This document shows positions 1,858 to 42,512 of a stretch of 64,000 nucleotides of DNA, piece after piece. Origin of the DNA: an uncultured Boseongicola sp. Lineage in GTDB: Bacteria > Actinomycetota > Acidimicrobiia > Spongiisociales > ZC4RG35. The notes below the pieces were generated by a model. The model ran no database searches. It was not told where the DNA came from and worked only from the letters and a program-made list of their open reading frames with translations. The stretch is from the NCBI GenBank assembly GCA_964194555.1, contig CAXMMT010000094.1:1890-65889 (forward strand), given 5' to 3'. Both the position numbers and the translations under genes were made by a program. The number at the start of each line of letters is the position of its first letter. Positions within the stretch are counted from its first letter, which is position 1.

Positions 1858-2859
1858 ATCAAGCACTTCCTCAACACATATGATTGGTCACGATCCGAGC
1901 TGCAAGCCCTGATCGACGAGGCCCGGGTTTTCAAGACGTCGCCTCACGGCAACGCCCTCGCGGGGAAGACGATCGCGCTCCTCTTTCTCAACAACTCCCT
2001 CCGAACCCGCACCTCGTTCGATGTCGGAGCCAATCAGTTGGGCGGCCACGCCGTGGTGTTGTCTCCGTCCGGTGGCATGTGGCCGCTCGAGTTCGATGAC
2101 GGGGTCGTGATGACCGGAGATGCCGAGGAACACGTCAAGGAGGCTGCAACGGTCCTCTCCCGATACTGTGACCTGATAGGAATCCGGGCCTTTCCCAAGT
2201 TCGAGGACTGGGAGGAGGACCGAAAAGACCGAATCCTCGAAGCTTTCGCCAATCACGCCGACGTTCCCGTCATCAACATGGAGACGATCACCCACCCCTG
2301 TCAGGAAATGGCGATGACCATGGCTCTCCAGGAGAAGATCGGTCAACTCGACGGAAAGAAGTTCACTCTCACCTGGTCCTATCACCCGAAACCCCTCAAC
2401 ACAGCCGTCGCCAACTCTGCTCTGCTCATCGCAGCCAAGTTCGGAATGGACGTCACGCTCCTCTGCCCGACCGAGGAGTTCATACTCGATGATCGTTATC
2501 TGGACATTGCGCGGTCAGACGCGAGCTCCTATGGCCGGAGCCTCACAGTCACCCATGACATCGACGCCGCCTATCGAGGCGCAGACGTCGTCTACGCCAA
2601 GAGTTGGGGCGCCCTCCCCTACTTCGGCAACTGGGAAGCTGAGAAGCCCATCAGGGATCAGTACCGACACTTCATCGTGGACGAAGAAAAGATGTCTCTC
2701 AGCAACGATGCCCTGGTGAGTCACTGTCTTCCGATGAGGCGAAACGTCATCATGACCGACGCCGTTTTCGACGCCAGCACTTGTTTTGCCTACGACGAGG
2801 CCGAAAACCGTCTCCATACCCAAAAAGCGATCATGAGCACATTGGTAGAGAACGGCTGA
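1858..2859 (+). CDS. argF': N-acetylornithine carbamoyltransferase (AOTCase, ArgF'); start codon non-canonical or uncertain
   Basis: KHFLNTYDWSR, SLRTRTSF, DAEEH, INMETITHPCQE, YHPKPLNTAVANS, HCLPMRRN, DEAENRLH match Xanthomonas-type AOTCase; the frame extends to a TAA at 1846 with only ATT/ATC before the conserved N-terminus. Confidence 0.93.
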   Translation: MKHFLNTYDWSRSELQALIDEARVFKTSPHGNALAGKTIALLFLNNSLRTRTSFDVGANQLGGHAVVLSPSGGMWPLEFDDGVVMTGDAEEHVKEAATVLSRYCDLIGIRAFPKFEDWEEDRKDRILEAFANHADVPVINMETITHPCQEMAMTMALQEKIGQLDGKKFTLTWSYHPKPLNTAVANSALLIAAKFGMDVTLLCPTEEFILDDRYLDIARSDASSYGRSLTVTHDIDAAYRGADVVYAKSWGALPYFGNWEAEKPIRDQYRHFIVDEEKMSLSNDALVSHCLPMRRNVIMTDAVFDASTCFAYDEAENRLHTQKAIMSTLVENG

Positions 2860-4193
2860 TGATGACTCCTCACCAAGACGTCCGTCAAACAATCGTGCAG
2901 CTCCTGTCGAACATGAGCGACGGGAAGGAGATTCGCACCTATCTCAGCCGATTCTCCCAGCTCGATCAGGCTCGGTTCGCCGTTATCAAGATTGGAGGGG
3001 CCATCCTCCAGAGCAGACTCGAAGAGACAGCGGCCGCTCTTGCCCTCCTCCACACGGTCGGACTCACTCCGATAGTCATCCACGGCGGCGGTCCTCAGCT
3101 CGACGAGCGGTTGGCAAACGATGGCATCGTCTCAGACAAGGTCGATGGCTTGAGAGTCACGACCAGTGAGGTGCTCGATGCTGCCCGCGACATCTTCACG
3201 GCGCAGAACATCGCTCTCGTCGAGGCGGTGAGGGGCCGGGGTGTGTCAGCCCATGGGCTCACTCAGGGCGCGTTCGACGCAGACATCGTCGATCAGAACA
3301 AGTACGGCTTCGTCGGCGAGCCGGCAAAACTCCACTTAGACCTGTTGCGATCGATCGTGAGATCCGGGGCGATACCGATTCTCACCTGTCTCGGCGTGGC
3401 CCCTGGGGGGCAGTTGGTGAACATGAACGCCGACTCGGCCACGCGTTTTCTGGTCCGCGAGATCCAACCGATGAAGATCATCTTCCTTGTCGACTCCGGT
3501 GGTCTCCGTGACGGGGAGGGCCGCATCATCGAGTCGATCAACCTCGCTTCTGACTTCGACGACCTGATGAGTCAGGATTGGGTCCACTCCGGAATGAGGC
3601 TCAAACTCGCCGAGATCCGCCGTCTTCTCGACGACACTCCCCCTTCGACCTCGGTGTCGATCACCAGCCCTACCACCCTGGTCAGAGAGCTGTTCACCCA
3701 CGGAGGTGCAGGCACGCTCGTCCGCAAGGGCGAGAAGATCGTCAAATACGAGGACAAGGCCGCTCTCGACCGGGAGCGCGTCGAGCATCTCATCCAGGGT
3801 GCGTTTGGTCGAAAGTTGGAGTCCCGCTGGTGGAACGACCTGGAGATGTCTGCAGCTTATGTCTCCGCAAGTTATCGGGCCGGCGCGGTGGTGACCCGAA
3901 TCGACGACTTCACCTATCTCGACAAGTTCGCGATTCATGAAAGCGCCCAGGGAGAAGGACTCGCCAGAACCGTCTGGACCCATGTGACAAGGGACTTCCC
4001 GGTTCTCTTCTGGAGATCGAGAAGCGACAATCGTTTCAACGCCTTCTATGCCAAGGAGGCCGAGGGCTCGGTGAAGCAAGGCCATTGGACCATCTACTGG
4101 ACTGGTGAGAGCGACTTCGACAGGATCAGCCGGGCGGTGAAGAGGCTGAACGAGCTGCCTGCAGCCTTCCGTAGGGACTCCTCCGGTGTCTGA
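2859..4193 (+). CDS. argB: Acetylglutamate kinase with C-terminal NAT (DUF619) domain; bifunctional NAGS/K type
   Basis: FAVIKIGGA, HGGGPQ, NMNAD kinase domain, then YLDKFAI...QGEGL...LFWRSR..N NAT domain; ATG overlaps the argF' stop. Confidence 0.93.
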   Translation: MMTPHQDVRQTIVQLLSNMSDGKEIRTYLSRFSQLDQARFAVIKIGGAILQSRLEETAAALALLHTVGLTPIVIHGGGPQLDERLANDGIVSDKVDGLRVTTSEVLDAARDIFTAQNIALVEAVRGRGVSAHGLTQGAFDADIVDQNKYGFVGEPAKLHLDLLRSIVRSGAIPILTCLGVAPGGQLVNMNADSATRFLVREIQPMKIIFLVDSGGLRDGEGRIIESINLASDFDDLMSQDWVHSGMRLKLAEIRRLLDDTPPSTSVSITSPTTLVRELFTHGGAGTLVRKGEKIVKYEDKAALDRERVEHLIQGAFGRKLESRWWNDLEMSAAYVSASYRAGAVVTRIDDFTYLDKFAIHESAQGEGLARTVWTHVTRDFPVLFWRSRSDNRFNAFYAKEAEGSVKQGHWTIYWTGESDFDRISRAVKRLNELPAAFRRDSSGV

Positions 4194-5271
4194 AGCCAGT
4201 GCCCTGGCCGGTAACGTTGGCGATGTTCAGGGCGAGACAGAGGCGCCTCTGACAAGGACGCAGGACGAAGGCGCACTGGCCCGTTCGTCGAGGACGAGGA
4301 CACAGTCAGGGACGTCACTGGACGTCCTGATCGCGGCGAATGTTGGTGGTCGGGGCACTAGATCCGTCGGCGTCGTCGGCGCCCGCGGACACACCGGCAG
4401 CGAACTGCTCAGGCTCCTCGGCGGCCACCCTGGATTGTCTGTGAAGTACGCGGGGTCGAGAGAGAAAGCGGGTCGCCCCGTTCCCGAGATCGACCAGCTC
4501 ACATTTGAGGACATGGACGCCGCCGGGATAGCCAAATTGGGGTTGGATGCGGTGTTTCTCGCTCTTCCCGACGGTGTTGGCAGACCATTCGCCTCCGCCC
4601 TTCCCGCCGAGACTGTGATCATCGACATCTCCTCAGACCACCGTTTCGACGACACCTGGATCTACGGTCTCCCCGAGCTCAATAGGGCGAAGATCGCCGG
4701 AGCGCGACGAGTCGCCAATCCGGGTTGTTACGCGACCGTCATGCAGCTCGTGCTGGCGCCTTTTGTAGATGATCTCGATGGAGTGCCGGCCGTGTTCGGG
4801 GTCTCTGGATACTCCGGGGCCGGCACTGCGACATCGGCGAAGAACGATCCGGCTCGTCTCGCCGACAACCTGTTGCCTTACCAGCTCGTGGGCCACAATC
4901 ATGAGCGAGAGGCCACCCGACACCTGGGTCACCCGGTTCGATTCATGCCCCACGTTCATCAGGCGTTTCGGGGTCTTCTCATAACCTCCCACATCCCGTT
5001 ATCGACCCCGATCACTGGCGCAGATGCGTTCGGCCGTTTGGTTGATGCCTATGCAGACGAGCCTCTGATCGACATTCACGAGAGGATTCCCGAGTTGCGC
5101 GATGGCGCCGGTCGATTGGGCGTCGTGTTTGGCGGCGTGGAAGTGAGCGAGGATGGCCGAAACGTGGTGGTGGTGGGTGCCGAGGACAACCTTCTCAAGG
5201 GAGCAGCAGTTCAGGCCGTCCAGAATCTCAATCTCGCCTTTGGGCTGCCGGAGTTCGCCGCGATCCTCTGA
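4186..5271 (+). CDS. argC: N-acetyl-gamma-glutamyl-phosphate reductase carrying a 54-aa repeat-derived N-terminal insert
   Basis: VGVVGARGHTG, YGLPELNR, ANPGCYAT, GVSGYSGAG, DNLLKGAAVQAVQNLN. Confidence 0.95.
   Translation: MSEASALAGNVGDVQGETEAPLTRTQDEGALARSSRTRTQSGTSLDVLIAANVGGRGTRSVGVVGARGHTGSELLRLLGGHPGLSVKYAGSREKAGRPVPEIDQLTFEDMDAAGIAKLGLDAVFLALPDGVGRPFASALPAETVIIDISSDHRFDDTWIYGLPELNRAKIAGARRVANPGCYATVMQLVLAPFVDDLDGVPAVFGVSGYSGAGTATSAKNDPARLADNLLPYQLVGHNHEREATRHLGHPVRFMPHVHQAFRGLLITSHIPLSTPITGADAFGRLVDAYADEPLIDIHERIPELRDGAGRLGVVFGGVEVSEDGRNVVVVGAEDNLLKGAAVQAVQNLNLAFGLPEFAAIL
4196..4361. mobile_element. Palindromic MITE/REP-like element, copy 1 (in frame within argC)
   Basis: Bounded by CCAG...CTAG; ~55-bp imperfect inverted arms; closely similar to 46383-46549. 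Confidence 0.85.
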
Positions 5272-32767: not shown

Positions 32768-34555
32768 ATGACCACCGAAGACATCCAACCAACGATCCAC
32801 GAGGCGATGGCCCGATTTCGGGCCTCACTGCTTCGTCGTGCGTCCGCTGTGGCTTGGGTGGTTCTCATCATCATCGGTGCCCAGGCCGTTCGCAGCGAAA
32901 TCTTCGCACTGCCGGCCTTCTACATACCAATGGCAGGTTTGGCTGTGCTTTTGGTCTCGTCGGCCGCCATCCGGTGGGAAGGTCTCATGGCGACCCAGGC
33001 GGCCCCATGGATATCCGCTGGCTGGCTTCTCGCTCTCATCGTCGGCATAACGGCCCTCGCCACCATCCCCGAGTTAACTGCCACTGCACAGCCGATCTTG
33101 TTTGGCATAGCTGCGGTATCAGGTCTCCTCCTCACGTGGTGGACCCACGCAATCATCACCGTGACCATCGGGATCGCCATCTCCTACATCGCCTTCACCC
33201 TTGGACTGGCCGATGCCATTCCAGACGTGCTTGCCCCGGTCCTGACCGTCCTGGTGGTCGCTGCCTCGACGGCCCTGGTTGGTTTTGAGTTTGAGAAAGA
33301 AGCCCTCGTCTCGGCGGGAAAGGAGAGCAAGCTCGAGGTCCAGCGTCTCGATTTCGAGCGTCTCTACGCGGTCAGCGCCACTCTGGCTCGCGCCGAATCC
33401 CTTTCGGAGATCGTCCCACACCTGATCGGGACCATCTGCAAATACCTCGACGCCCAGGTGGGTGTCGTTCTTCTTCACGACGCCGAAATGGCACGTCTCG
33501 AGGTGATGAGTCCAATCTGGGTCAACGGATACCCGCTCGAAACCGAGGAAATAGCAGTCGACATAAACTCGACCAGTGTCGTGGCTCAGACCTATCGCGC
33601 CGCCAAACCGATACTTGTCAGGCAAATCGACGCCAAAACCGACTCACATGTCTTGCTCAAGGAGCTTGGCCTGAAACAGGCCTTGGTGGCGCCTCTCAAG
33701 GTGGAATCCATGAGAGTGGGCATCATCGTGGTGGGCGATCCCTACGCCAACGACTTCACGGAAGACCAGTTGGAGCAGTTGGGCTCGCTGGCGGCGCCTG
33801 CAGGACTTGTCCTCAGCCAGATCGGGAGATACGAGGCCCAGGCGGAGATGACGAGACGTCTCGAAGAGGTTGCTCAAATGAAGTCTGACTTTGTCTCGAC
33901 CGTGAGTCACGAGTTGCGCAGCCCCCTTACATCGATCATCGGATCGCTGGACACGGTGAATCGGCCCGAGTTGGCGCCGCCAGAGCCCACCTCTCAGCAG
34001 CTACTCCTCAGTGCTCGTCGACAGGCCGGACGTTTGCAGAGACTCATCGAGGACCTGTTGGTGGTGTCGAGGATCGATCGAGGAGCGATCCCGATGCAAA
34101 TCGAGGCGGTCCCGATTCGCAAAATCCTCGACGAGGTCAACCGTGTCGTCTCCCTCGAGCCGACGATCAGCGTCGACCCCGAAGGGTTGGAGACGAGGGC
34201 AGACCGAGATCATCTCTCGCGAGTTCTCATCAATCTGGTCGAGAACGCAGCCAAGTACGCCCCTGACAGTCCCGTCGAGTTGTTTGCATGGGAGCGAAAC
34301 GGCAAGGCTGTCATTGCGGTCGTAGACCACGGACCCGGCATCCCGGAGAGCGACAGAGAGCGGGTCTTCGAGAGGTTCATGCAGGTGGACCAGTCGGATA
34401 CGAGATCCAAAGGCGGAACGGGACTCGGTCTGTCCATCGTGAAGAGCCTTACCGAGTCGATGAGCGGTTCGGTTCGAATCGAGACGACCGAGGGTGGCGG
34501 AGCCACCTTCATCGTGGAACTGCCTCTCCCGATCACGATGCCGGCGCAGGCCTGA
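32768..34555 (+). CDS. Membrane sensor histidine kinase with GAF domain
   Basis: Multiple TM helices, GAF, SHELRSPL, NAAKY, DHGPGI, GGTGLGL; no adjacent response regulator. Confidence 0.92.
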   Translation: MTTEDIQPTIHEAMARFRASLLRRASAVAWVVLIIIGAQAVRSEIFALPAFYIPMAGLAVLLVSSAAIRWEGLMATQAAPWISAGWLLALIVGITALATIPELTATAQPILFGIAAVSGLLLTWWTHAIITVTIGIAISYIAFTLGLADAIPDVLAPVLTVLVVAASTALVGFEFEKEALVSAGKESKLEVQRLDFERLYAVSATLARAESLSEIVPHLIGTICKYLDAQVGVVLLHDAEMARLEVMSPIWVNGYPLETEEIAVDINSTSVVAQTYRAAKPILVRQIDAKTDSHVLLKELGLKQALVAPLKVESMRVGIIVVGDPYANDFTEDQLEQLGSLAAPAGLVLSQIGRYEAQAEMTRRLEEVAQMKSDFVSTVSHELRSPLTSIIGSLDTVNRPELAPPEPTSQQLLLSARRQAGRLQRLIEDLLVVSRIDRGAIPMQIEAVPIRKILDEVNRVVSLEPTISVDPEGLETRADRDHLSRVLINLVENAAKYAPDSPVELFAWERNGKAVIAVVDHGPGIPESDRERVFERFMQVDQSDTRSKGGTGLGLSIVKSLTESMSGSVRIETTEGGGATFIVELPLPITMPAQA

Positions 34556-36095: not shown

Positions 36096-36908
36096 ATGGA
36101 GGATGAGGGGCGAGGATCGACTCGCGATCAGGACAAGACTGAGTACTGGCGTAGCGTCCTCAACGGAGATGACAAGGGCCTGCGTATTGCGCAGCAGCGC
36201 TTCGGGAAAATGCAGGCACCGCCTCGATGCAAACTCTGCCGGGCCCCTTTCGCGGGGCCGTATGTCCCAATCCTTCGTCTCGCCGGGTTCAAGAGATGGG
36301 ATCTGAATCAACAACTCTGCCGGAGATGCTTTGGTCGTGTCGAAGACCATCAAGGTGGTGCCGAAATACCGGTGTCTGTCTTGTATGCCGACATCCGCGG
36401 CTCGACCACGATTGCCGAAACCACATCCTCCGTCGACTTCACGCGGATGCTCAATCAGTTCTACAAGGTGGTCACGGAGGCAGTCGACGCGGAGATGGGC
36501 GCAATCGACCACATGGCAGGAGACGGGATCATGGTGATGTGGGTTCCTGCCTTCGTCGATGAGCACCACGCCAAACACGCCATTGCCGCTGGACGACGGA
36601 TCCTTCAGGGGTTCCCGGACATGGCGACGCTACCGGTGGGTGTCGGAGTGCATACCGGGGAGGCGTATGTGGGAGTGGTTGGCGAAGCCGGAGCGCGCAA
36701 CTTCACGGTCCTCGGCGACACGCCCAACACAGTGGCCAGGCTCAGTTCGGCCGCCGGGGCCGGAGAGCTGGTGATGAGCGAGGCTGCAGCTACAGCGGCC
36801 GGCGTGGAGACAGCCAACCTCCAACACCTCATGCTGGACCTGAAAGGCAAGTCCGACCCCTTCCCGGCATGGATCGAGAGAGCTGTCGATGTCGAGGAAA
36901 GTGAATGA
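36096..36908 (+). CDS. Class III adenylate/guanylate cyclase with N-terminal CxxC...CxxC motif
   Basis: CKLC...CRRC; VLYADIRGST, AGDG, GVHTG, GDTPNTVARL, LKGK. Confidence 0.92.
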   Translation: MEDEGRGSTRDQDKTEYWRSVLNGDDKGLRIAQQRFGKMQAPPRCKLCRAPFAGPYVPILRLAGFKRWDLNQQLCRRCFGRVEDHQGGAEIPVSVLYADIRGSTTIAETTSSVDFTRMLNQFYKVVTEAVDAEMGAIDHMAGDGIMVMWVPAFVDEHHAKHAIAAGRRILQGFPDMATLPVGVGVHTGEAYVGVVGEAGARNFTVLGDTPNTVARLSSAAGAGELVMSEAAATAAGVETANLQHLMLDLKGKSDPFPAWIERAVDVEESE

Positions 36909-37386: not shown

Positions 37387-38274
37387 GTGAAACGATGGCT
37401 CTGGCTACCGCCCCTGATCGTGGCCGGTGTCATCTCCGCCTTTCCGAGAATCCTTGCGCGCGTCTTCGCCCCACCGCAGCGAGCAACCGAGCAGTCCCCC
37501 GCCGATCTTGACTTACCCGGAGAGCAAGTCTGGCTTCGCAGTGTCAATGGCACCAGACTCCATGGCTGGTTCATCCCCGTTGATCGCACCGCGCCAGCTG
37601 TCGTCGTCCTCCACGGTTGGGGTGGGAACGCCGCCCTGATGCTTCCGATGGCACCACATCTCCACCGCGCCGGATTTCACGCGCTCTTCCTCGATGCCCG
37701 CAACCACGGTTTCTCTGAGCACGACCGTTTCATGTCGATGCCCAGGTTCGCCGAGGATCTCGATGTCGCCGCCGAATGGCTCGACGCCTACGCGGATGTG
37801 ACATCAATCGGTGTCATCGGACATTCGGTCGGGGCCGGTGCGGCCATCCTCAGCGCATCCCGGAGTGATCGGTTCGCCGCAGTGGTGTCGGTCTCTTCCT
37901 TCTCTCATCCCGGGGAGATGATGAGGGAGCAGATGGACCGAATCCCGTCCCCACTTCTCGATCTGCTTCTCGGCTACATCCAGCGGCTCATCGGATACCG
38001 TTTTGACGACTTCGCCCCTCGTCACACGATCCTCTTCGTGAAGGCCCCCATCATGCTGGTGCACGGCGATTCCGATGAGGTGGTCCCGATCCGAAGCCTC
38101 GGGGAGCTCGCGGCGGCGAGACCGGATGCCAAAGTGGTCATTGTCAAGGGGGGCGGGCATAGCGATCTGGGTCCGTTCGACCCCTTCCTGGTTCAGATCA
38201 CTGACTTCCTCAACCGTCACCTGGCAACGGCCGTCCCTATTCGTCCATCAACAGGTCTGAGTACTCGTCCCTGA
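37387..38274 (+). CDS. Alpha/beta hydrolase with N-terminal anchor
   Basis: LHGWGG, GHSVGA, HGDSDEVVP, GGGH. Confidence 0.88.
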   Translation: MKRWLWLPPLIVAGVISAFPRILARVFAPPQRATEQSPADLDLPGEQVWLRSVNGTRLHGWFIPVDRTAPAVVVLHGWGGNAALMLPMAPHLHRAGFHALFLDARNHGFSEHDRFMSMPRFAEDLDVAAEWLDAYADVTSIGVIGHSVGAGAAILSASRSDRFAAVVSVSSFSHPGEMMREQMDRIPSPLLDLLLGYIQRLIGYRFDDFAPRHTILFVKAPIMLVHGDSDEVVPIRSLGELAAARPDAKVVIVKGGGHSDLGPFDPFLVQITDFLNRHLATAVPIRPSTGLSTRP

Positions 38275-39850
38275 CCACCTTCTTGTCGAACTTGCCGGTG
38301 CCCGTCTTGGGGATCTCGTCGATGAACACGACCTTGTCGGGCAACCACCAGTCGGCGACCCGTCCTTTGAGATGATCCAGCAACTCCTGTTCTGTCACCT
38401 CGGGCCCCTGTGCCCGAACCACGAACGCGGCCGGCCGTTCCTGCCACTTGAGATGCTTCAAGCCGACCACAGTGGCCTCGGCGACCTGTGGATGAGCCAT
38501 CAGCTCGTTCTCCAGATCCAATGAGGAGATCCACTCTCCTCCCGACTTGATGACATCTTTCGCCCGGTCGGTGATTCGTATGTACCCCTCGGGCGTGATC
38601 TTGCAGACATCTCCCGTCTTCAGCCAACCGTCCACAAAGGACTCCGCAGTGCGATCGTCCTTGTAGTACTCGGCGGCGATCCAGGGTCCCCGAATCAGGA
38701 GCTCTCCGAACGCCTCGCCGTCTTGGGGAAGCTCCTCCCCCTCCTCATCGACGATCTTCACCTGGAGACCGGTGACGGGAAGCCCTGCTGTCTCCAATCG
38801 GTCCAGTTGATCTTCCAGATCCCAATCTTCCATGTGCGGCTTGAGCACCGCCGTCGAGGCGATCGGGTTGGTCTCGGTCATGCCCCATCCCTGGATCAGC
38901 CGAATTCCACGCTCCGTCCAATACCACTTGATCATCGATCTCGGCACGGCCGACCCACCACAGAGAAAAGCGCGGATCGAGGATGTGTCGGCCTCCGGAT
39001 GTGCGGTCAGGTATTGCTGAATCCCCAGCCAAACCGTCGGTACGCCGGCGCTGAAGGTCACCTTCTCGTCGGCAAAGAGCTTGACGATGCCCTCCGGTGA
39101 CAAATCCGGCCCTGGATATGTCAGCTTGGCTCCCTGAGTGACGGCCTCGAAGGTGTAACCCCATGCGGCCGCGTGGAACATCGGGACCACTGGCAGCACG
39201 TTGTCGCTCGGCCCCATGGCGATGTTTGCCAGGTTGGAGATCGTGTGTACGTATGTGGACCGCTGCGTGTAGGCAACTCCCTTGGGGTGTCCGGTCGTAC
39301 CTGAGCTGTAGCAGAGCATCATCGGTGAGCGCTCGTCGAGAAGCGGCCACTGACCGTGTTCGGTCTGATCACCGATCAAATCCTCGTAGGCAATCGACCC
39401 GGCGATCGCGTCACTTGCCTGGTCTCCGAGGATCACCCAGGTCTTGATGGTCTCGAGTTTGTCCACCAGAGGAGCGATGAGCGGGACCAGATCAGGATCG
39501 ACAAACATAGCTCTGTCCTCGGCGTGGTTGATGATGTAGACAATCTGGTCAGCAAACAACCGCAGATTGACTGTGTGACAAACACGCCCGGTATTGGCTG
39601 TCGCCCAATACAGCTCATGGTGTCGCTGGTTGTTCCAGGCGAAAGTGCCGACGGCATCCCCAATCTCCAGACCCAAGACGTCCATCGCCGAGGCGAGCTT
39701 GCGCACCCGAACATCAGTGGACCCATACGTCGATCGAGAGATGGATCGGTCCGACTCGACCGAGACGATCTCCTGGTCGGGATGGATCCATACCGCATGG
39801 TCGTAGAGAGTGGACATCAGAAGCGGGAAGTCGTCCTGCATGTGTGGCAT
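38237..39850 (-). CDS. Fatty-acid--CoA ligase (AlkK/DmdB-like)
   Basis: [43 protein letters not shown]. Confidence 0.93.
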
Positions 39851-40455
39851 CAGCTACCTCCAAGGAGCTTGGCTTTCTCGGTTTCGAACTCTTGGTCAGT
39901 CAGTTTTTCCTGGTCGTGGAGACGGGAGAGCTTCTCGAGTTGGGACGCGGTCGACTCGGAGGCCGCCGGTGTAGCCCCACCCTCCATGTGAAGTTTTCGC
40001 TGCTCACGCACGCCGTAGATCAGCGCCTGGACTTCCTCTGGCGATGGAATGTCGCGGTATCGGGTCTGACCATGAGTCCCGGCCGACTCGATCAGCAGGT
40101 CGCCGGTCTTGTAGATGCGCTCGAAGATCGTCTGGCTGAATGCGACATCGTTGATCACCTCGAGGGAAATCTCCTTCCCACGCTTGGCTATCCAACCGGC
40201 TCGATAGATCACCCGCTCATTGGTGATGACGTGGTGGGTGGTCAGCCAGCGGGTAACACCCCGAGCTATCAGAGCAATCACACCCACAATCAATAGCGAT
40301 ACGACCCACGCGGGAGTGCTCACGCTGATGAGGAGCCCGCCGAGTACCACGCCAAGAAGAACCAGGAGACCTTCTCTGAGGAGACGGGACCAATGGGGGC
40401 GGAATTGTGCTTCTATCTTCTCGCCGGAGTTGAGTAGACGCTCGGGGTAGCCCAT
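39850..40455 (-). CDS. Membrane protein with bacterial PH domain and SHOCT tail
   Basis: FRPHW, two TM helices, ITNERVI, C-terminal LEKLSRL...LTDQEFETEKAKLL. Confidence 0.88.
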   Translation of the reverse strand: MGYPERLLNSGEKIEAQFRPHWSRLLREGLLVLLGVVLGGLLISVSTPAWVVSLLIVGVIALIARGVTRWLTTHHVITNERVIYRAGWIAKRGKEISLEVINDVAFSQTIFERIYKTGDLLIESAGTHGQTRYRDIPSPEEVQALIYGVREQRKLHMEGGATPAASESTASQLEKLSRLHDQEKLTDQEFETEKAKLLGGS

Positions 40456-40501
40456 GACCGCGGAGCCTAACGGTGAGACCTTGGACGGTGCCTGTCCAGG
40501 C

Positions 40502-40896
40502 GCGAGAAACCCCGAGGGAGTCTTGGCCGAAGCCTCAACCCTCTCGGGGTTCTCTATCCCGTTCGTCGTCCGGCCGGGGACCGGACTTCGATCAGGTTTC
40601 GCCGTTGGCCGAAGCCAGCGGCTATGCGATCCGAGGACCGCTCTCCCCGTTTCCGAGGAGGTTGCAGACCTTGCGGCCTGCTAGCCGTCAGTCCGCTCGA
40701 CGATCCCGAAGGATCCCCGCTCGGTCTGCCGACCGCCCGTTGCCTCCGGTTTCCCTTCGGCTTCGGGTTGAACCTTCCTTCCGGTTTCCCGTCTCTCCGG
40801 TTCGACCTTCCGGCCGGTTTCCCGACCTTCCGGCCTGACCAACCCGACGGTCTCCCGTCGTTTTGGCCCGTCGGAGGGTCTCCCCTTCGACATGAC
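40502..40896 (-). ncRNA. Candidate ~390-nt highly structured non-coding RNA of unrecognised family
   Basis: More than 12 short helices closed by GNRA/UUCG loops only when read on the minus strand; upstream promoter; terminal GC hairpin. Confidence 0.75.
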
Positions 40897-40900
40897 CGGA

Positions 40901-40929
40901 AAAGTAGACCATCCCGATACCTTCCACAA
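40901..40929 (-). promoter_or_regulatory. Sigma70/SigA-type promoter of the large candidate RNA
   Basis: TTGTGG (40929-40924)-N17-TACTTT (40906-40901). Confidence 0.7.
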
Positions 40930-40999
40930 GCCAGAAACCTGATTGTTTTTCGCGAACTGGGTTCTCTTTTCGCGACCCCGCAATTTCGCCAATGAGAAT

Positions 41000-41125
41000 G
41001 CGAGAAACCCCGAGGAAGTCCTGACCGAAGCCCGCCTAGGCCGAAGCCTCCTAGGGCCGAAGTCTCAACCCTCTCGGGGTTCTCACTGCCACTTCGCCGG
41101 GAAAGCGGGCCCCCGACTGGGCGAC
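41000..41125 (-). ncRNA. Candidate ~125-nt non-coding RNA, paralogous to the 3' end of the large RNA
   Basis: 3' domain GAGAACCCCGAGAGGGTTGAG...CTCGGGGTTTCTC shared with 40502-40554; three CTTCGG motifs; own promoter. Confidence 0.7.
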
Positions 41126-41132
41126 AAATCCG

Positions 41133-41161
41133 AACATACGTAACTCCGACATGAGCGTCAA
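41133..41161 (-). promoter_or_regulatory. Near-consensus sigma70/SigA promoter of the small candidate RNA
   Basis: TTGACG (41161-41156)-N17-TATGTT (41138-41133). Confidence 0.8.
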
Positions 41162-41264
41162 GGAGCACCGGCTCAATGTTTTCGCGCCCTGGAAGAACGT
41201 CTCGCGGATCATCCCCGATCAGATTCGGACGGGTGTCGAGTAAGGCCCAGTTAGCGTCATTCGG

Positions 41265-42512
41265 ATGTGGTCCGACCGGAATGTACGACGTGTCGTGCTT
41301 GCGCGACTCATCTCCAGGATCGGTGGAGAAGCGGCATTCTTTGTCGGCATTTGGGGCAAGGCGGCCTTCCAACTCGAAGCAACTGCCAGCGAACTCGCAT
41401 TGGTCATGGCCGCTCTCGGTGTCGCGTCGCTGATCGGCGCCTCGATTGCCGGCGTTCTCATCGACCGCTTTGATCCACGCCGGGTTGTGCTCTACGGGGA
41501 GATCCTCTTCATCCCGTCCGCAATCGGACTGGTCTTTGCCGACACATTGCCTTCGCTGGTCGTCGCCACCTTCGTGCTGGGGCTGGTGGGCACGCCGGTC
41601 TTCACTGCCATTTCGTCGTTTGCGCCCTTCCTGACGGACGATGAGGACAGACTCGCCAAGATCAACGGTTGGATCGAAGGTGCGTCTTGGATGGCCTTCG
41701 TCCTCGGCCCCGCGTTGGGAGCTCTTCTCGTGGTCACGATCAGCGTCGACGCCATCTTCGTACTCGACGCTGTCACGTCTGCCATCGCCGCCCTCCTGAT
41801 TCTTCCCGTTGGAGTGAGACGCCTCTCGGCAAGGGAAGGGGAGAAACACGGCTTCACCGAGATGAAGGAGGGCTTTGCCTACACATACAGCAATCGCCGG
41901 CTCCGGTTTTACATCTGGCTCGGAGCATCTGTCTGGCTGCTCTTCGGTACCTTCGGCTCGCTCGAACCTCTGTTCTATCGCGACGTCCTCGGGACAAGCC
42001 TGGAGACTCTCGGTTGGGTGAACTCGATTTTCGGACTTGGGCTCATCATCGGAACCTTGATCTCCGGGCGATTGTCGGCACGATTCCGCACCGCCCGATG
42101 GCTCACCTTCTTCGTCGCTCTCAATGCAGTAGGCGTTCTCGCCTACGTGGGCACCGACATGCTTCAGGTGGTGGTACCGGCCGGGGCGTTTTGGGGGATG
42201 ATCATTGGTGTGATGGCGCCGCTTCTCCGCACGATGATCCAGTTGAACTCACCCGACGAGATGGTCGGCCGGATCATGGGTGTCACCCACATCCACTCGG
42301 AGGTCGGTCACCTGATTCCGCTGGCGATCGCACCATGGCTTGCCGGCATATTTGGCGTGCAGCCGACGCTGATCGGCGCCGGGGTACTGATAGCAGTCGT
42401 GGCATCACTTTTCTGGCCAAGAGCTGCGCAGCTGGATAGAACCCGGAGGACCGAGGTCCCCCCGACCGGTCTTCCCGATCCGGCGAATGAGCCTCGTTCA
42501 GTGGGACACTGA
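41265..42512 (+). CDS. MFS transporter (macrolide-efflux/DHA3-like)
   Basis: About 12 TM helices, GVLIDRFDPRR motif A, EMVGRIMG. Confidence 0.92.
   Translation: MWSDRNVRRVVLARLISRIGGEAAFFVGIWGKAAFQLEATASELALVMAALGVASLIGASIAGVLIDRFDPRRVVLYGEILFIPSAIGLVFADTLPSLVVATFVLGLVGTPVFTAISSFAPFLTDDEDRLAKINGWIEGASWMAFVLGPALGALLVVTISVDAIFVLDAVTSAIAALLILPVGVRRLSAREGEKHGFTEMKEGFAYTYSNRRLRFYIWLGASVWLLFGTFGSLEPLFYRDVLGTSLETLGWVNSIFGLGLIIGTLISGRLSARFRTARWLTFFVALNAVGVLAYVGTDMLQVVVPAGAFWGMIIGVMAPLLRTMIQLNSPDEMVGRIMGVTHIHSEVGHLIPLAIAPWLAGIFGVQPTLIGAGVLIAVVASLFWPRAAQLDRTRRTEVPPTGLPDPANEPRSVGH

What the first reader, a model, noticed from the sequence alone, without database searches (positions are those of the whole stretch)
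40502..40929. Unrecognised ~390-nt ornate non-coding RNA packed with GNRA/UUCG hairpins
Seen: on the minus strand, after TTGTGG-N17-TACTTT, the sequence is an almost continuous run of tetraloop hairpins: GTCGAAGGG-GAGA-CCCTCCGAC, CGACGG-GAGA-CCGTCG, GCC-GGAA-GGT (x2), CGG-GAAA-CCG (x2), CGGTC-GGCA-GACCG, GATCC-TTCG-GGATC, GCAGGCC-GCAA-GGTCTGC, CTCCTCG-GAAA-CGGGGAG, TGGC-TTCG-GCCA and GTCCGGT-CCCC-GGCCGGAC. Longer-range helices (GTCAG/CTGAC, GGCTA/TAGCC, GAACC/GGTTC, CCCG/CGGG) close multibranch junctions, and it ends in a long GC hairpin. The G-U pairs and GNRA/UUCG loops work only on this strand, which argues for selection at the RNA level. I do not see the signatures of RNase P RNA, tmRNA, SRP RNA, rRNA, tRNA or a riboswitch that I know. 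Inference: an independently transcribed structured RNA of a possibly undescribed class. It could be a protein sponge (many GGA motifs at loops, as in CsrB/RsmZ), an RNA-polymerase-binding RNA analogous to Ms1/6S, or a scaffold.
Basis: partly seen in the sequence, partly recalled or inferred. Interest (0 to 1): 0.9.

Follow-up and report, generated by a model that had tools for sequence, protein, structure and literature searches.

The report
New ornate small RNA in Acidimicrobiia
A roughly 390-base, heavily folded non-coding RNA gene that matches no catalogued RNA family and belongs to a wider set of small RNA genes, seen only in one order of Acidimicrobiia, that all share the same promoter signals and the same closing hairpin.

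Summary
On the minus strand, about 40894-40504, lies a ~390-nt RNA. It has 12 GNRA/UUCG hairpins against 1.6±1.2 in shuffles and a folding z-score of -7.9 against -4.1 on the plus strand. Rfam gave no match.

In 35 homologues, 60 of 102 consensus pairs change on both sides, against 34±3 in shuffles. No ORF is conserved.

This RNA type ("L1") is single-copy. It was found in 14 of 151 genomes of the order, all in the window's family.

It is one member of a wider set of small RNA genes. A ~51-nt closing hairpin was found in 35 of 37 genomes of the order and 2 of 114 elsewhere in the class. 159 of 173 hairpin copies follow one promoter layout: two CGCGAAA repeats 20-21 bp apart, then -35 TTGnnn and -10 TACnTT. 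The window also holds a short sibling gene (41126-41002).

The downstream bPH gene has its own -10-like box, so I read L1 as a free-standing, trans-acting RNA, probably protein-bound.

- CsrA-sponge reading: not supported.
- 6S/Ms1 membership: not supported.
- Lead only: RRM proteins share the order's distribution.
- No transcript data could be obtained.

The parts
40967..40975 (-). Distal upstream repeat TCGCGAAAA (candidate activator site, about -77)
   Evidence: Read. 112 of 145 distinct promoter regions of the superfamily carry two CG[CA]GAAA motifs, 20 bp (60) or 21 bp (50) apart.
40947..40955 (-). Proximal upstream repeat TCGCGAAAA (about -57)
   Evidence: In 143 of 145 distinct promoter regions the proximal motif starts 60-61 nt before the inferred start, although the search pattern allowed 49-76.
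40901..40929 (-). Core promoter: -35 TTGTGG (40929-40924), 17-nt spacer, -10 TACTTT (40906-40901)
   Evidence: -10 TACnTT appears in 111 of 159 units. The pattern is found upstream of 159 of 173 hairpins, against 5 of 173 on the reverse complement and 0 of 173 in shuffles. It fails the generic sigma-70 scan.
40504..40894 (-). The ornate RNA itself (type L1), about 391 nt. The 5' end is inferred (conserved CAYG 6-8 nt after the -10); the 3' end is the end of the hairpin tail.
   Evidence: 35 homologues of 319-495 nt. 102 consensus pairs, 60 with changes on both sides.
40869..40892 (-). P1 hairpin (GNRA loop), the conserved 5' element
   Evidence: Helix 2: 8 pairs, 3 with changes on both sides. 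One pair reads UA in 16 rows and CG in 13.
40699..40718 (-). Central hairpin GGGGAUCC-UUCG-GGAUCGUC, invariant or nearly so even in its stem
   Evidence: Invariant and nearly invariant columns in A1, A2 and A4. Helix 11. Neighbouring hairpins covary freely in the same rows.
40558..40595 (-). Long 3' hairpin with a C-rich apical loop (GGUCCCCGGCC; loop near 40580-40576)
   Evidence: Helices 19-20: 14 pairs, 8 with changes on both sides. The apical CCCCGG is invariant in 35 of 35 rows.
40504..40554 (-). Closing hairpin shared by the whole superfamily (GAGAA-CCCCGAGAGGG...UUCG...CUCCCUCGGGG-UUUCUC); presumed terminator and 3' handle
   Evidence: Model R1 hits 35 of 37 genomes of the order and 2 of 114 (weakly) in other orders of the class. 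The own genome has three copies.
41002..41126 (-). Sibling small RNA gene (type S-B, shortened), ending in a copy of the same hairpin with an enlarged tip (41084-41002)
   Evidence: S-B lies upstream of L1 on the same strand in 32 loci.
41133..41187 (-). Promoter of the sibling RNA: GCGCGAAAA (41187-41179), -35 TTGACG (41161-41156), -10 TATGTT (41138-41133)
   Evidence: It is the only promoter-like site the generic scan found in 40300-41400.
40464..40469 (-). -10-like TAGGCT of the downstream bPH gene, 8 nt before its ATG (40455); not part of the RNA, but it argues against a leader role
   Evidence: A TAG[GC]CT-like box lies 7-10 nt before the start codon in several of the 18 spacers printed, among them L004, L005, L007, L008, L078, L105, L107 and the window. 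I made no full count. The leaderless reading is inference.
39850..40455 (-). Downstream gene: bacterial PH domain + SHOCT protein, followed by an AMP-binding (acyl-CoA ligase-like) gene at 38237-39850
   Evidence: Pfam. Synteny.

Best explanation
This is a real, free-standing gene for a ~390-nt highly structured non-coding RNA (type 'L1').

Transcription (inferred, not observed). It is read from its own housekeeping-type promoter (-35 TTGTGG, -10 TACTTT). That promoter sits behind two direct CGCGAAA repeats at about -57 and -77, which I read as sites for a dedicated transcription activator. The RNA ends at a GC-rich hairpin with a short U-rich tail.

Family. L1 is the family-specific, single-copy, 'ornate' member of an order-wide set of small RNA genes in Acidimicrobiia. 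All are framed by the same promoter layout and the same almost invariant 3' hairpin, while their bodies differ (short types of about 150 nt, long types of 200-750 nt, sometimes in tandem arrays).

Mechanism (inferred). I propose that L1 acts in trans as a protein-bound RNA. The shared 3' hairpin would terminate transcription and serve as a stability or docking handle. The invariant central UUCG hairpin and the C-rich apical loop would be specific contact sites. The variable run of GNRA/UUCG hairpins would be a rigid scaffold that gains and loses arms.

What is shown: structure, conservation, distribution, promoter layout.
What is inferred: transcription, termination, trans action, protein binding.
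For: Structure.
- z = -7.89 on the minus strand against -4.09 on the plus strand.
- 12 stable tetraloop hairpins against 1.6±1.2 in shuffles.
- In 12 homologues, 26 of 81 pairs are compensatory.
- In 35 homologues, 90.5% of cells are paired against 82.9% shuffled. 60 of 102 pairs change on both sides, against 34.3±3.1 (0 of 500 shuffles reach this) and 27-36 when partners are slid.

Not coding. The longest sense ORFs range from 0 to 97 aa and are not conserved. 589 of 762 gap runs are not multiples of 3. The overlapping 431-aa ORF has no Pfam hit and lies antisense to the MFS gene.

Not a known RNA.
- Rfam: 0 matches at gathering score in the window; best E = 0.2, a microRNA model.
- Rfam: 0 matches in 20 + 8 related loci.
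- SRP RNA, RNase P RNA and tmRNA lie elsewhere in the genome.

Own transcription unit.
- The promoter pattern is found upstream of 159 of 173 hairpins, against 5 of 173 (reverse complement) and 0 of 173 (shuffled).
- The repeats are 20 or 21 bp apart in 110 of 112 promoter regions, at a fixed distance from the start in 143 of 145.
- Units stand alone next to unrelated genes and in arrays of up to 5.
- The next gene has its own -10-like box between the hairpin and its start codon.

Distribution.
- Hairpin: 35 of 37 genomes in the order, 2 of 114 elsewhere in the class.
- L1: 14 of 151, all in family f1, one copy each.
- L1 bodies are alike only among themselves: 37 of 138 distinct bodies hit.

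Protein binding rather than base pairing. The most conserved 20 nt form a closed hairpin whose stem letters do not vary, while neighbouring stems covary. The hairpin stem is likewise fixed in sequence across families.

Not mobile. No match in the phage or plasmid collections.
Against: No transcript, 5' end or 3' end has been seen.

The L1 promoter fails a generic sigma-70 scan, and the hairpin fails a generic terminator rule.

The invariance of parts of the hairpin in alignment A3 is partly by construction. Those copies were collected with a pattern that fixes CC[CT]GAGAGGG and CTCGGG. The BLAST-collected copies show the same letters, but they are fewer.

No protein partner is identified. Hfq and ProQ were found in 0 of 101 genomes each. 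The RRM co-distribution is essentially one clade, and it has exceptions both ways.

18 of 38 distinct L1 genes end 45-90 nt before the bPH or AMP-binding start codon. Read-through into that operon, and hence a cis effect, is therefore not excluded.

A C-rich apical loop is also what a base-pairing RNA aimed at ribosome-binding sites would carry.
Confidence: 0.5

Rival explanations
1. Trans-acting base-pairing small RNA. The invariant C-rich apical loop (UCCCCGG) of the 3' hairpin would pair with G-rich ribosome-binding sites of target mRNAs, as C-rich loops do in small RNAs of other Gram-positive bacteria. The rest of the RNA would be stabilising structure.
For: The apical CCCCGG is invariant in 35 of 35 homologues while its stem covaries. 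The genes are multicopy, co-regulated and each has its own promoter and hairpin, which recalls sibling small RNAs such as LhrC1-5 (PMC4132741 and PMC5880928; search listing and start of abstracts only). Hfq and ProQ were not found, as is usual for such RNAs in high-GC Gram-positives (recalled).
Against: The RNA is far larger and more elaborately conserved than a seed-plus-terminator RNA needs. Its best-conserved block is a closed UUCG hairpin, which cannot serve as a seed. RNAalifold closes the C-rich loop to 3 nt. I did not run a target search. The one RNA-RNA idea I tested, S-B loop against L1 loop, did no better than shuffles.
Confidence: 0.22
2. An RNA-polymerase-binding RNA that fills the place of 6S or Ms1 in this order.
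For: 6S RNA (RF00013) was found in 0 of 41 genomes of the order, while the control genomes responded. Size (~390 nt), high structure and the strong conserved promoter with upstream elements fit an abundant RNA. Ms1 homologues are known to escape sequence searches (PMC9130861, passages read).
Against: The consensus fold is a chain of at least 11 local hairpins and small junctions, not a long rod with a central bubble. The gene neighbours are a PD-(D/E)XK nuclease, a bPH protein and an AMP-binding enzyme. Ms1 sits next to HAD-IB hydrolase and oxidoreductase genes. L1 is confined to one family and is missing from 6 of 19 of its sampled genomes, which is odd for a housekeeping regulator of RNA polymerase.
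Confidence: 0.1
3. Cis-acting 5' leader or attenuator of the bPH / AMP-binding operon. The closing hairpin would be a regulated terminator, and the small RNA would be only its by-product.
For: 73 of 130 hairpin-bearing locus-strands have bPH or the AMP-binding gene downstream on the same strand, 37 of them within 100 nt. For L1 the figure is 18 of 38 within 45-90 nt. The hairpin tail is a weak U-tract, so read-through is plausible.
Against: The same promoter-body-hairpin units stand in tandem arrays, ahead of one another, and at unrelated loci where the next gene is on the other strand. 14 of 38 L1 genes are 106-1454 nt from bPH or the AMP-binding gene, and 3 have neither. A -10-like TAG[GC]CT box lies 7-10 nt before the start codon in several of the adjacent cases printed (no full count), so the gene probably has its own promoter and a leaderless mRNA. 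The pattern is also the reverse of a riboswitch's: the 'expression platform' is invariant and the 'sensor' varies.
Confidence: 0.07
4. CsrA/RsmA-sequestering sponge of the CsrB/RsmZ kind.
For: There are many GGA triplets in the purine-rich linkers and two GGAA loops in the window's RNA. The genes are multicopy with a shared upstream activating sequence, as for rsmX/Y/Z (recalled).
Against: CsrA (PF02599) was found in 0 of 8 genomes of the window's genus and 5 of 31 relatives, while the control genomes responded. The hairpin family is in 53 of 61 relatives. The GGAA loops and the repeated purine-rich unit are confined to the genus.
Confidence: 0.02
5. A repeated or mobile DNA element with no function as RNA.
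For: The hairpin is a repeated inverted repeat. Arrays with near-identical copies exist.
Against: There are only 3 copies in the own genome and 1-5 per genome elsewhere, always at the end of a promoter-led unit. Compensatory changes are specific to one strand. The locus is syntenic across the order. Nothing was found in phage or plasmid collections.
Confidence: 0.02

Closest known systems
Sibling / multicopy small RNA genes under one regulator (for example LhrC1-5 of Listeria under LisR; PMC4132741 and PMC5880928, seen as search listing and start of abstracts only)
   Same: Several small RNA genes per genome, sometimes in tandem, each with its own promoter and closing hairpin. A shared upstream motif implies one regulator. 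L1 carries a C-rich loop.
   Different: Here the shared parts are the promoter and the 3' hairpin, while the bodies are unrelated in sequence and range from about 90 to 750 nt. L1 is about four times the size of such RNAs (recalled). No regulator, target or transcript is known.
Large ornate bacterial RNAs of unknown function (OLE, ROOL, GOLLD, raiA; PMC12286853 and PMC12968392, seen as search listing and start of abstracts only)
   Same: Long, lineage-restricted, densely structured non-coding RNA with strong covariation and no assigned function.
   Different: No match to any of their Rfam models. L1 is smaller than most of them (recalled). It is confined to one family and belongs to a promoter/hairpin-defined gene set. 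Self-assembly is untested.
6S RNA and Ms1 RNA (RNA-polymerase-binding RNAs; PMC9130861, passages read)
   Same: Abundant-looking structured RNA of a few hundred nt in an actinobacterial lineage where 6S is not detectable.
   Different: The fold is not a rod with a bubble. The gene neighbourhood differs. There is no Rfam match.
6C RNA of Actinobacteria
   Same: A GC-rich hairpin presenting a run of C at its tip.
   Different: No Rfam match, even at E <= 10, in 40200-41300. The C-rich hairpin is one of more than ten helices.
CsrB/RsmZ-type protein sponges
   Same: Repeated purine-rich units, and multicopy genes with an upstream activating sequence.
   Different: The partner protein CsrA was not found in the genus. 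The repeats are not conserved beyond the genus.

Membership tests
6S RNA (Rfam RF00013) | Match to the family covariance model | tested here: not met
   No match in the window at gathering score or at E <= 10. 0 of 41 genomes of the order matched, while the controls responded in 5 genomes.
6S RNA (Rfam RF00013) | Long irregular double-stranded rod with a large central bubble | tested here: not met
   The MFE, RNAalifold on 12 sequences and RNAalifold on 35 sequences all give a series of local hairpins and small junctions.
6S RNA (Rfam RF00013) | Binds RNA polymerase holoenzyme and templates product RNA | not testable with these tools
   Needs biochemistry.
Ms1 RNA | Conserved neighbourhood (HAD-IB hydrolase / phosphoserine phosphatase and oxidoreductase genes), as described in PMC9130861 | tested here: not met
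   The neighbours are a PD-(D/E)XK nuclease, an MFS transporter, a bPH/SHOCT protein and an AMP-binding enzyme. Paper passages read.
Ms1 RNA | 6S-like rod with a central bubble plus two short terminal hairpins; binds RNA polymerase core | tested here: not met
   Fold as above. Binding cannot be tested. I did not confirm the accession of an Ms1 model in Rfam; the scan of all families gave nothing.
CsrB/RsmZ-type CsrA sponge | CsrA/RsmA protein encoded in the genome | tested here: not met
   PF02599 found in 0 of 8 genomes of the genus (completeness 54-85%) and 5 of 31 relatives.
CsrB/RsmZ-type CsrA sponge | Many conserved GGA motifs presented in hairpin loops | tested here: inconclusive
   Read. 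The conserved loops are GAAA, GAGA, GCAA and UUCG. GGA is in two GGAA loops and in linkers, and these are conserved only in the genus. I made no formal count.
Free-standing small RNA gene (promoter + intrinsic terminator) | Own promoter | tested here: met
   A conserved, positioned promoter pattern lies upstream of 159 of 173 hairpins, against 5 and 0 in the controls. Caveat: the L1 promoter fails the generic consensus scan.
Free-standing small RNA gene (promoter + intrinsic terminator) | Own terminator | tested here: inconclusive
   The GC-rich hairpin is followed by UUUCUC in L1 and UUUUUC in many short types. It is directly followed by the next unit's or next gene's promoter. It fails the rule of at least 5 T in 8.
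Free-standing small RNA gene (promoter + intrinsic terminator) | A discrete transcript of the predicted size | not testable with these tools
Riboswitch / cis-regulatory leader | Constant position directly upstream of the regulated gene, which has no promoter of its own | tested here: not met
   18 of 38 L1 genes are adjacent, 14 are 106-1454 nt away and 3 have no such gene. A -10-like box sits between the hairpin and the start codon in several adjacent cases; no full count was made. Units also stand alone.
Known large ornate RNAs (OLE, ROOL, GOLLD, raiA, HEARO) and 6C | Match to the family covariance model | tested here: not met
   Rfam 15, all 4227 models: nothing at gathering score in the window. 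Nothing relevant at E <= 10 in 40200-41300.

The most novel reading that the evidence does not exclude
The nearly invariant 3' hairpin would be the docking handle of an RNA-binding protein system specific to this order. The candidates are the small single-RRM proteins and the DEAD-box helicase with a C-terminal RRM. These are present in 22 of 24 sampled genomes of the order and only 6 of 77 elsewhere in the class.

If so, the promoter/hairpin-framed genes would form a regulon of RNAs served by a chaperone of a kind not described for Actinomycetota, which lack Hfq and ProQ here. L1 would be its ornate, multi-site scaffold. It might also self-associate through its palindromic GGAUCC and CCGG elements, as other ornate RNAs do.
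Probability: 0.15. Interest if true: 0.85.

Novelty: new member of a known kind. Interest (0 to 1): 0.62.

Why it matters
Acidimicrobiia are abundant in soils, lakes and the sea, are mostly uncultured, and have essentially no described regulatory RNAs. My three full-text searches for such RNAs found none.

This locus gives three things:
- A new ~390-nt RNA with a well-supported fold.
- A simple rule that finds a set of co-regulated small RNA genes across a whole order: two CGCGAAA repeats 20-21 bp apart, a TACnTT -10 box, and a fixed 51-nt closing hairpin.
- Two concrete unknowns to look for: the activator that reads the repeats, and the factor that reads the hairpin.

The bodies change fast by gaining and losing stable hairpins while the two ends stay fixed. 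The set is therefore also a natural example of how structured RNAs grow.

The order has no detectable 6S RNA, Hfq or ProQ. Whatever these RNAs do is likely to be a main part of its RNA-based regulation.

Tried and rejected
Known families. Rfam at gathering score gave nothing on the whole window, on 20 related loci and on 8 more loci including arrays and the second locus of the own genome. In E-value mode on 40200-41300 it gave only six chance-level hits, best E = 0.2. SRP RNA, RNase P RNA and tmRNA lie on other contigs.

CsrA sponge. Rejected on the absence of CsrA in the genus.

6S/Ms1. Membership rejected on fold and neighbourhood. Function not excluded.

Cis leader. I first thought the 48-nt gap to the bPH start left no room for a promoter. 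The spacers then showed a -10-like box 7-10 nt before the start codon in several loci, so I dropped that argument.

Kissing complex between the loop of the upstream sibling RNA (CCGGGGG) and the C-rich loop of L1. RNAduplex energies for 33 pairs were within about 2 sd of mononucleotide shuffles for most pairs, and the predicted duplexes were not at the loops. No support. The test was crude: no length limit and no accessibility term.

The MAFFT columns are out of register between lineages, so I did not count it.

Mobile element. No match in phages or plasmids with distant blastn.

Common origin of L1 with the other long and short types. nhmmer with the L1 body profile hit only L1 bodies, 37 of 138. 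A relationship by structure alone (P1 hairpin, UUCG hairpin, GGAGU) is only an impression from reading.

Neighbouring regulators. The window has a GAF histidine kinase (32768-34555) and an adenylate cyclase-like gene (36096-36908), but no response regulator next to the locus. Nothing links them to the RNA.

Literature. Searches found no description of this RNA or of small RNAs of Acidimicrobiia. Those of PMC9130861 list predicted Ms1 loci and might bear on the Ms1 comparison.

Unpublished genome. G039 is among the genomes tallied. It gave one weak hairpin hit (E = 0.007) and no match in the others.
Full report
WHAT IS THERE

Read on the minus strand, the stretch has this order:
- Two direct repeats TCGCGAAAA (40975-40967 and 40955-40947).
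- TTGTGG (40929-40924), 17 nt, TACTTT (40906-40901).
- About 390 nt that are an almost unbroken run of short GC-rich hairpins capped by GNRA or UUCG loops.
- A long hairpin with the tail UUUCUC (40554-40504).

The RNA has 12 GNRA/UUCG loops closed by at least three pairs. The mean is 1.6 (sd 1.2, maximum 6) in 1000 dinucleotide-preserving shuffles, and there are none on the plus strand. The minus strand folds to -224.9 kcal/mol, z = -7.89. The plus strand folds to -185.1, z = -4.09.

NOT A KNOWN RNA, NOT A PROTEIN

Rfam 15 gave no match at gathering score anywhere in the 64-kb window. In E-value mode on 40200-41300 it gave six chance-level hits, the best a microRNA model at E = 0.2. It gave nothing in 28 related loci.

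The genome's SRP RNA, RNase P RNA and tmRNA are on other contigs.

A 431-aa ORF overlaps the region (40554-41849, minus). It has no Pfam hit and is the antisense shadow of the MFS transporter gene. Among 35 homologues the longest sense ORF ranges from 0 to 97 aa, and 589 of 762 gap runs are not multiples of three.

HOMOLOGUES AND COVARIATION

BLAST against 60 relatives found the body of the RNA in the genus and in some genera of the same family. It found the last ~55 nt in 53 of 61 genomes.

Twelve full-length homologues of 337-501 nt gave an RNAalifold consensus of 81 pairs, 26 with compensatory changes.

I then used 35 distinct homologues of 319-495 nt, including ones from named public MAGs. 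The consensus has 102 pairs:
- 90.5% of cells form standard pairs, against 82.9% after shuffling partners.
- 60 pairs have changes on both sides, against 34.3±3.1 (0 of 500 shuffles reach this).
- 283 cells have such changes, against 93.
- With partners slid by 1-3 columns, the figures fall to 27-36 pairs and 53-75 cells.

The sequences are related, so these controls overstate significance, but the margin is wide.

The well-supported helices, in window coordinates:
- P1, 40892-40869.
- A GGGAAACC hairpin, 40860-40845.
- A nested hairpin, 40767-40736.
- The central domain, 40733-40684.
- Four variable hairpins between 40681 and 40601.
- A long hairpin with a C-rich tip, 40595-40558.
- The closing hairpin.

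Three blocks barely vary in sequence: GGGGAUCC-UUCG-GGAUCGUC (40718-40699), GGUCCCCGGCC, and the stem of the closing hairpin. Between them, hairpins are gained, lost and duplicated from genus to genus.

The closing hairpin is repeated about 500 nt upstream in the window, at 41084-41002, with an enlarged tip. It occurs once more in the genome, on contig C21.

Of the 80 titles shown to me:
- 66 name Acidimicrobiia, Acidimicrobiaceae, Actinomycetota or Actinobacteria.
- 1 names Actinomycetes.
- 5 read 'uncultured bacterium'.
- 8 read 'Acidobacteriota'. Two of these carry typical L1 RNAs, so I suspect the labels.

A covariance model of the hairpin found it in 35 of 37 sampled genomes of the window's order, at 1-5 copies each. 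It found it in 2 of 114 genomes of other orders of the class, both weakly at E about 1e-5.

Of 173 hairpin copies in all fetched loci, 159 lie downstream of the same promoter layout. The same pattern hits 5 of 173 on the reverse complement of the same stretches and 0 of 173 after shuffling. The layout is strikingly fixed:
- 112 of 145 distinct promoter regions have two CG[CA]GAAA motifs.
- These are 20 bp (60 cases) or 21 bp (50 cases) apart.
- The proximal one starts 60-61 nt before the inferred start in 143 of 145, although the pattern allowed 49-76.

The -10 box is TACnTT in 111 of 159 units.

The hairpin is therefore not a general terminator. It is the end of a particular set of small RNA genes. 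Their lengths peak at 120-160 nt (62 units) and 350-400 nt (36 units). I distinguish:
- Two short types, S-A and S-B.
- Many long types.
- The window's type, L1.

Some genomes carry arrays of up to five units, with phased 7-nt repeats ahead of the promoters.

L1 is discrete. Its body profile hits only the 37 L1 bodies among 138 distinct bodies. A model of its central domain found it in 14 of 151 genomes of the order, once each. All 14 are in the window's family: the window's own genome plus 13 of the 19 other f1 genomes sampled, and 0 of 131 in eleven other families.

The window's own genome (84% complete) has three units:
- A shortened S-B (about 41126-41002). Its promoter TTGACG-17-TATGTT is the only one the generic scan accepts.
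- L1.
- An S-A type on contig C21.

S-B lies upstream of L1 on the same strand in 32 loci. Five further L1 loci have only variants of my S-B motif.

GENOMIC SETTING AND THE LEADER QUESTION

The cluster sits in a conserved slot. A PD-(D/E)XK nuclease gene lies divergently upstream, in 65 of 130 hairpin-bearing locus-strands. A bPH/SHOCT gene and then an AMP-binding enzyme gene lie downstream, in 73 of 130. In the window's genus an MFS transporter gene is inserted between the nuclease gene and the RNAs.

For L1, 18 of 38 distinct genes end 45-90 nt before the start codon of bPH or the AMP-binding gene. Fourteen are 106-1454 nt away, three have no such gene, and three loci end too soon to tell.

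I considered that the RNA might be the leader of this operon. Against this:
- The spacers carry a -10-like TAG[GC]CT box 7-10 nt before the start codon in several of the 18 adjacent cases printed; I made no full count. In the window it is at 40469-40464, with the ATG at 40455. That fits a leaderless mRNA with its own promoter, which is common in Actinobacteria (recalled).
- The same units occur ahead of one another, in arrays, and at unrelated loci.
- The constant part is the hairpin and the variable part is the body, which is the opposite of a riboswitch.

Some read-through cannot be excluded, because the U-tail is weak.

HOW IT PROBABLY WORKS

Shown: a conserved fold, a conserved and positioned promoter with two upstream repeats, a conserved 3' hairpin, single copy, and restriction to one family.

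Inferred:
1. The repeats at about -57 and -77, two helical turns apart, are sites for an activator, so the whole gene set is co-regulated.
2. The hairpin ends transcription. Because its stem letters are fixed across families while its inner part covaries, it is also read by something, most simply a protein.
3. L1 acts in trans.
4. The invariant closed UUCG hairpin points to recognition by a protein, or to a tertiary contact, rather than to base pairing.

The C-rich tip would equally suit pairing with G-rich ribosome-binding sites, so I keep the base-pairing RNA as the main rival.

My confidence by step:
- It is a genuine structured RNA gene of an uncatalogued family: about 0.9.
- It acts in trans: about 0.75.
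- It works mainly through protein binding: about 0.45.

CANDIDATE PARTNERS

Hfq and ProQ/FinO were found in 0 of 101 sampled genomes of the class. CsrA was found in 5 of 31 relatives and in none of the 8 genomes of the genus.

RRM_1 domains were found in 28 of 101 genomes: 22 of 24 in the order and 6 of 77 outside it, all six in one family. Crossed with the hairpin search:
- 21 genomes have both.
- 7 have RRM only (one in the order, six in the outside family).
- 2 have the hairpin only.

This is essentially one clade against the rest, so it is a lead and not evidence.

The own genome encodes two proteins of about 83 aa with canonical RNP1 and RNP2 motifs. It also encodes a DEAD-box helicase with a C-terminal RRM. 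None of them lies next to the RNA locus.

COMPARISON WITH WHAT IS KNOWN

In organisation the set is closest to sibling small RNAs under one regulator, such as LhrC1-5. It differs in that only the ends are shared, and L1 is far larger.

In look and status L1 resembles the ornate RNAs of unknown function (OLE, ROOL, GOLLD, raiA), but it matches none of their models.

It fails the tests I could run for 6S, Ms1, CsrB-type sponges, riboswitch leaders and 6C; see the membership table.

6S RNA itself was found in 0 of 41 genomes of the order. An RNA-polymerase-binding role therefore cannot be dismissed on need, only on shape and distribution.

NOVELTY AND LIMITS

I found no description of these RNAs in Rfam 15 or in three full-text searches. 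I rate it a new member of a known kind: a lineage-specific structured non-coding RNA. The unusual feature is a promoter/hairpin frame shared by unrelated bodies.

The main gap is the complete lack of expression data.

Other limits:
- The hairpin alignment used for the model was collected with a pattern that fixes part of its sequence.
- Start sites are inferred from the -10 box.
- The genome tallies are samples of mostly incomplete MAGs, so 'not found' does not mean absent.

Noticed in passing
window 41002-41187 (minus): A second small RNA gene (type S-B, shortened) with its own promoter (GCGCGAAAA, TTGACG-17-TATGTT). It carries a conserved loop sequence (GGGGGCCCGCUUUCC). Its copy of the family hairpin has a tip enlarged by extra UUCG hairpins.
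   Followed up: partly
own genome contig C21, about 2270-2440 (+) = L002 about 1400-1560: The third unit of the family in this genome, of the widespread ~150-nt S-A type. It has the same kind of promoter (TCGCGAAAT, then -10 TACGTT) and the hairpin at 76% identity.
   Followed up: partly
L044 (minus) about 1983-3959; L045 (plus) about 3443-4790; also L100, L110: Tandem arrays of up to five promoter-RNA-hairpin units, with near-identical short units and one long unit. Runs of phased 7-nt repeats (for example GTACTTC or GGAACCT repeated) precede the promoters.
   Followed up: partly
own genome C24:49-255 (-), C7:47853-48062 (-), C78:93071-93277 (-): Two small single-RRM proteins and a DEAD-box helicase with a C-terminal RRM. 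RRM_1 is found in 22 of 24 sampled genomes of the order but only 6 of 77 elsewhere in the class, much like the hairpin family.
   Followed up: partly
window 40455-40469 (minus): The bPH/SHOCT gene seems to be leaderless. A TAGGCT box ends 8 nt before its ATG, and a similar box recurs in several related loci (no full count).
   Followed up: partly
window 41265-42512 (+): An MFS transporter gene sits between the PD-(D/E)XK nuclease gene and the RNA cluster in this genus (for example L006 and L009). It is also seen upstream of L1 in a few other loci. In most other relatives the nuclease gene directly flanks the RNAs.
   Followed up: partly
41 genomes of the order: 6S RNA (RF00013) was not detected in any of them, although the same search responded in 5 control genomes.
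   Followed up: no
window 32768-34555 (+) and 36096-36908 (+): A GAF-domain histidine kinase and an adenylate/guanylate cyclase-domain protein lie a few kb from the RNA locus. No response regulator was seen next to them.
   Followed up: no
L046, L057, L070, L073, L099, L102, L107, L109: Eight public MAG records titled 'uncultured Acidobacteriota bacterium' carry the hairpin. Two of them (L070, L107) carry typical L1 RNAs. The taxonomic labels of these bins look doubtful.
   Followed up: no
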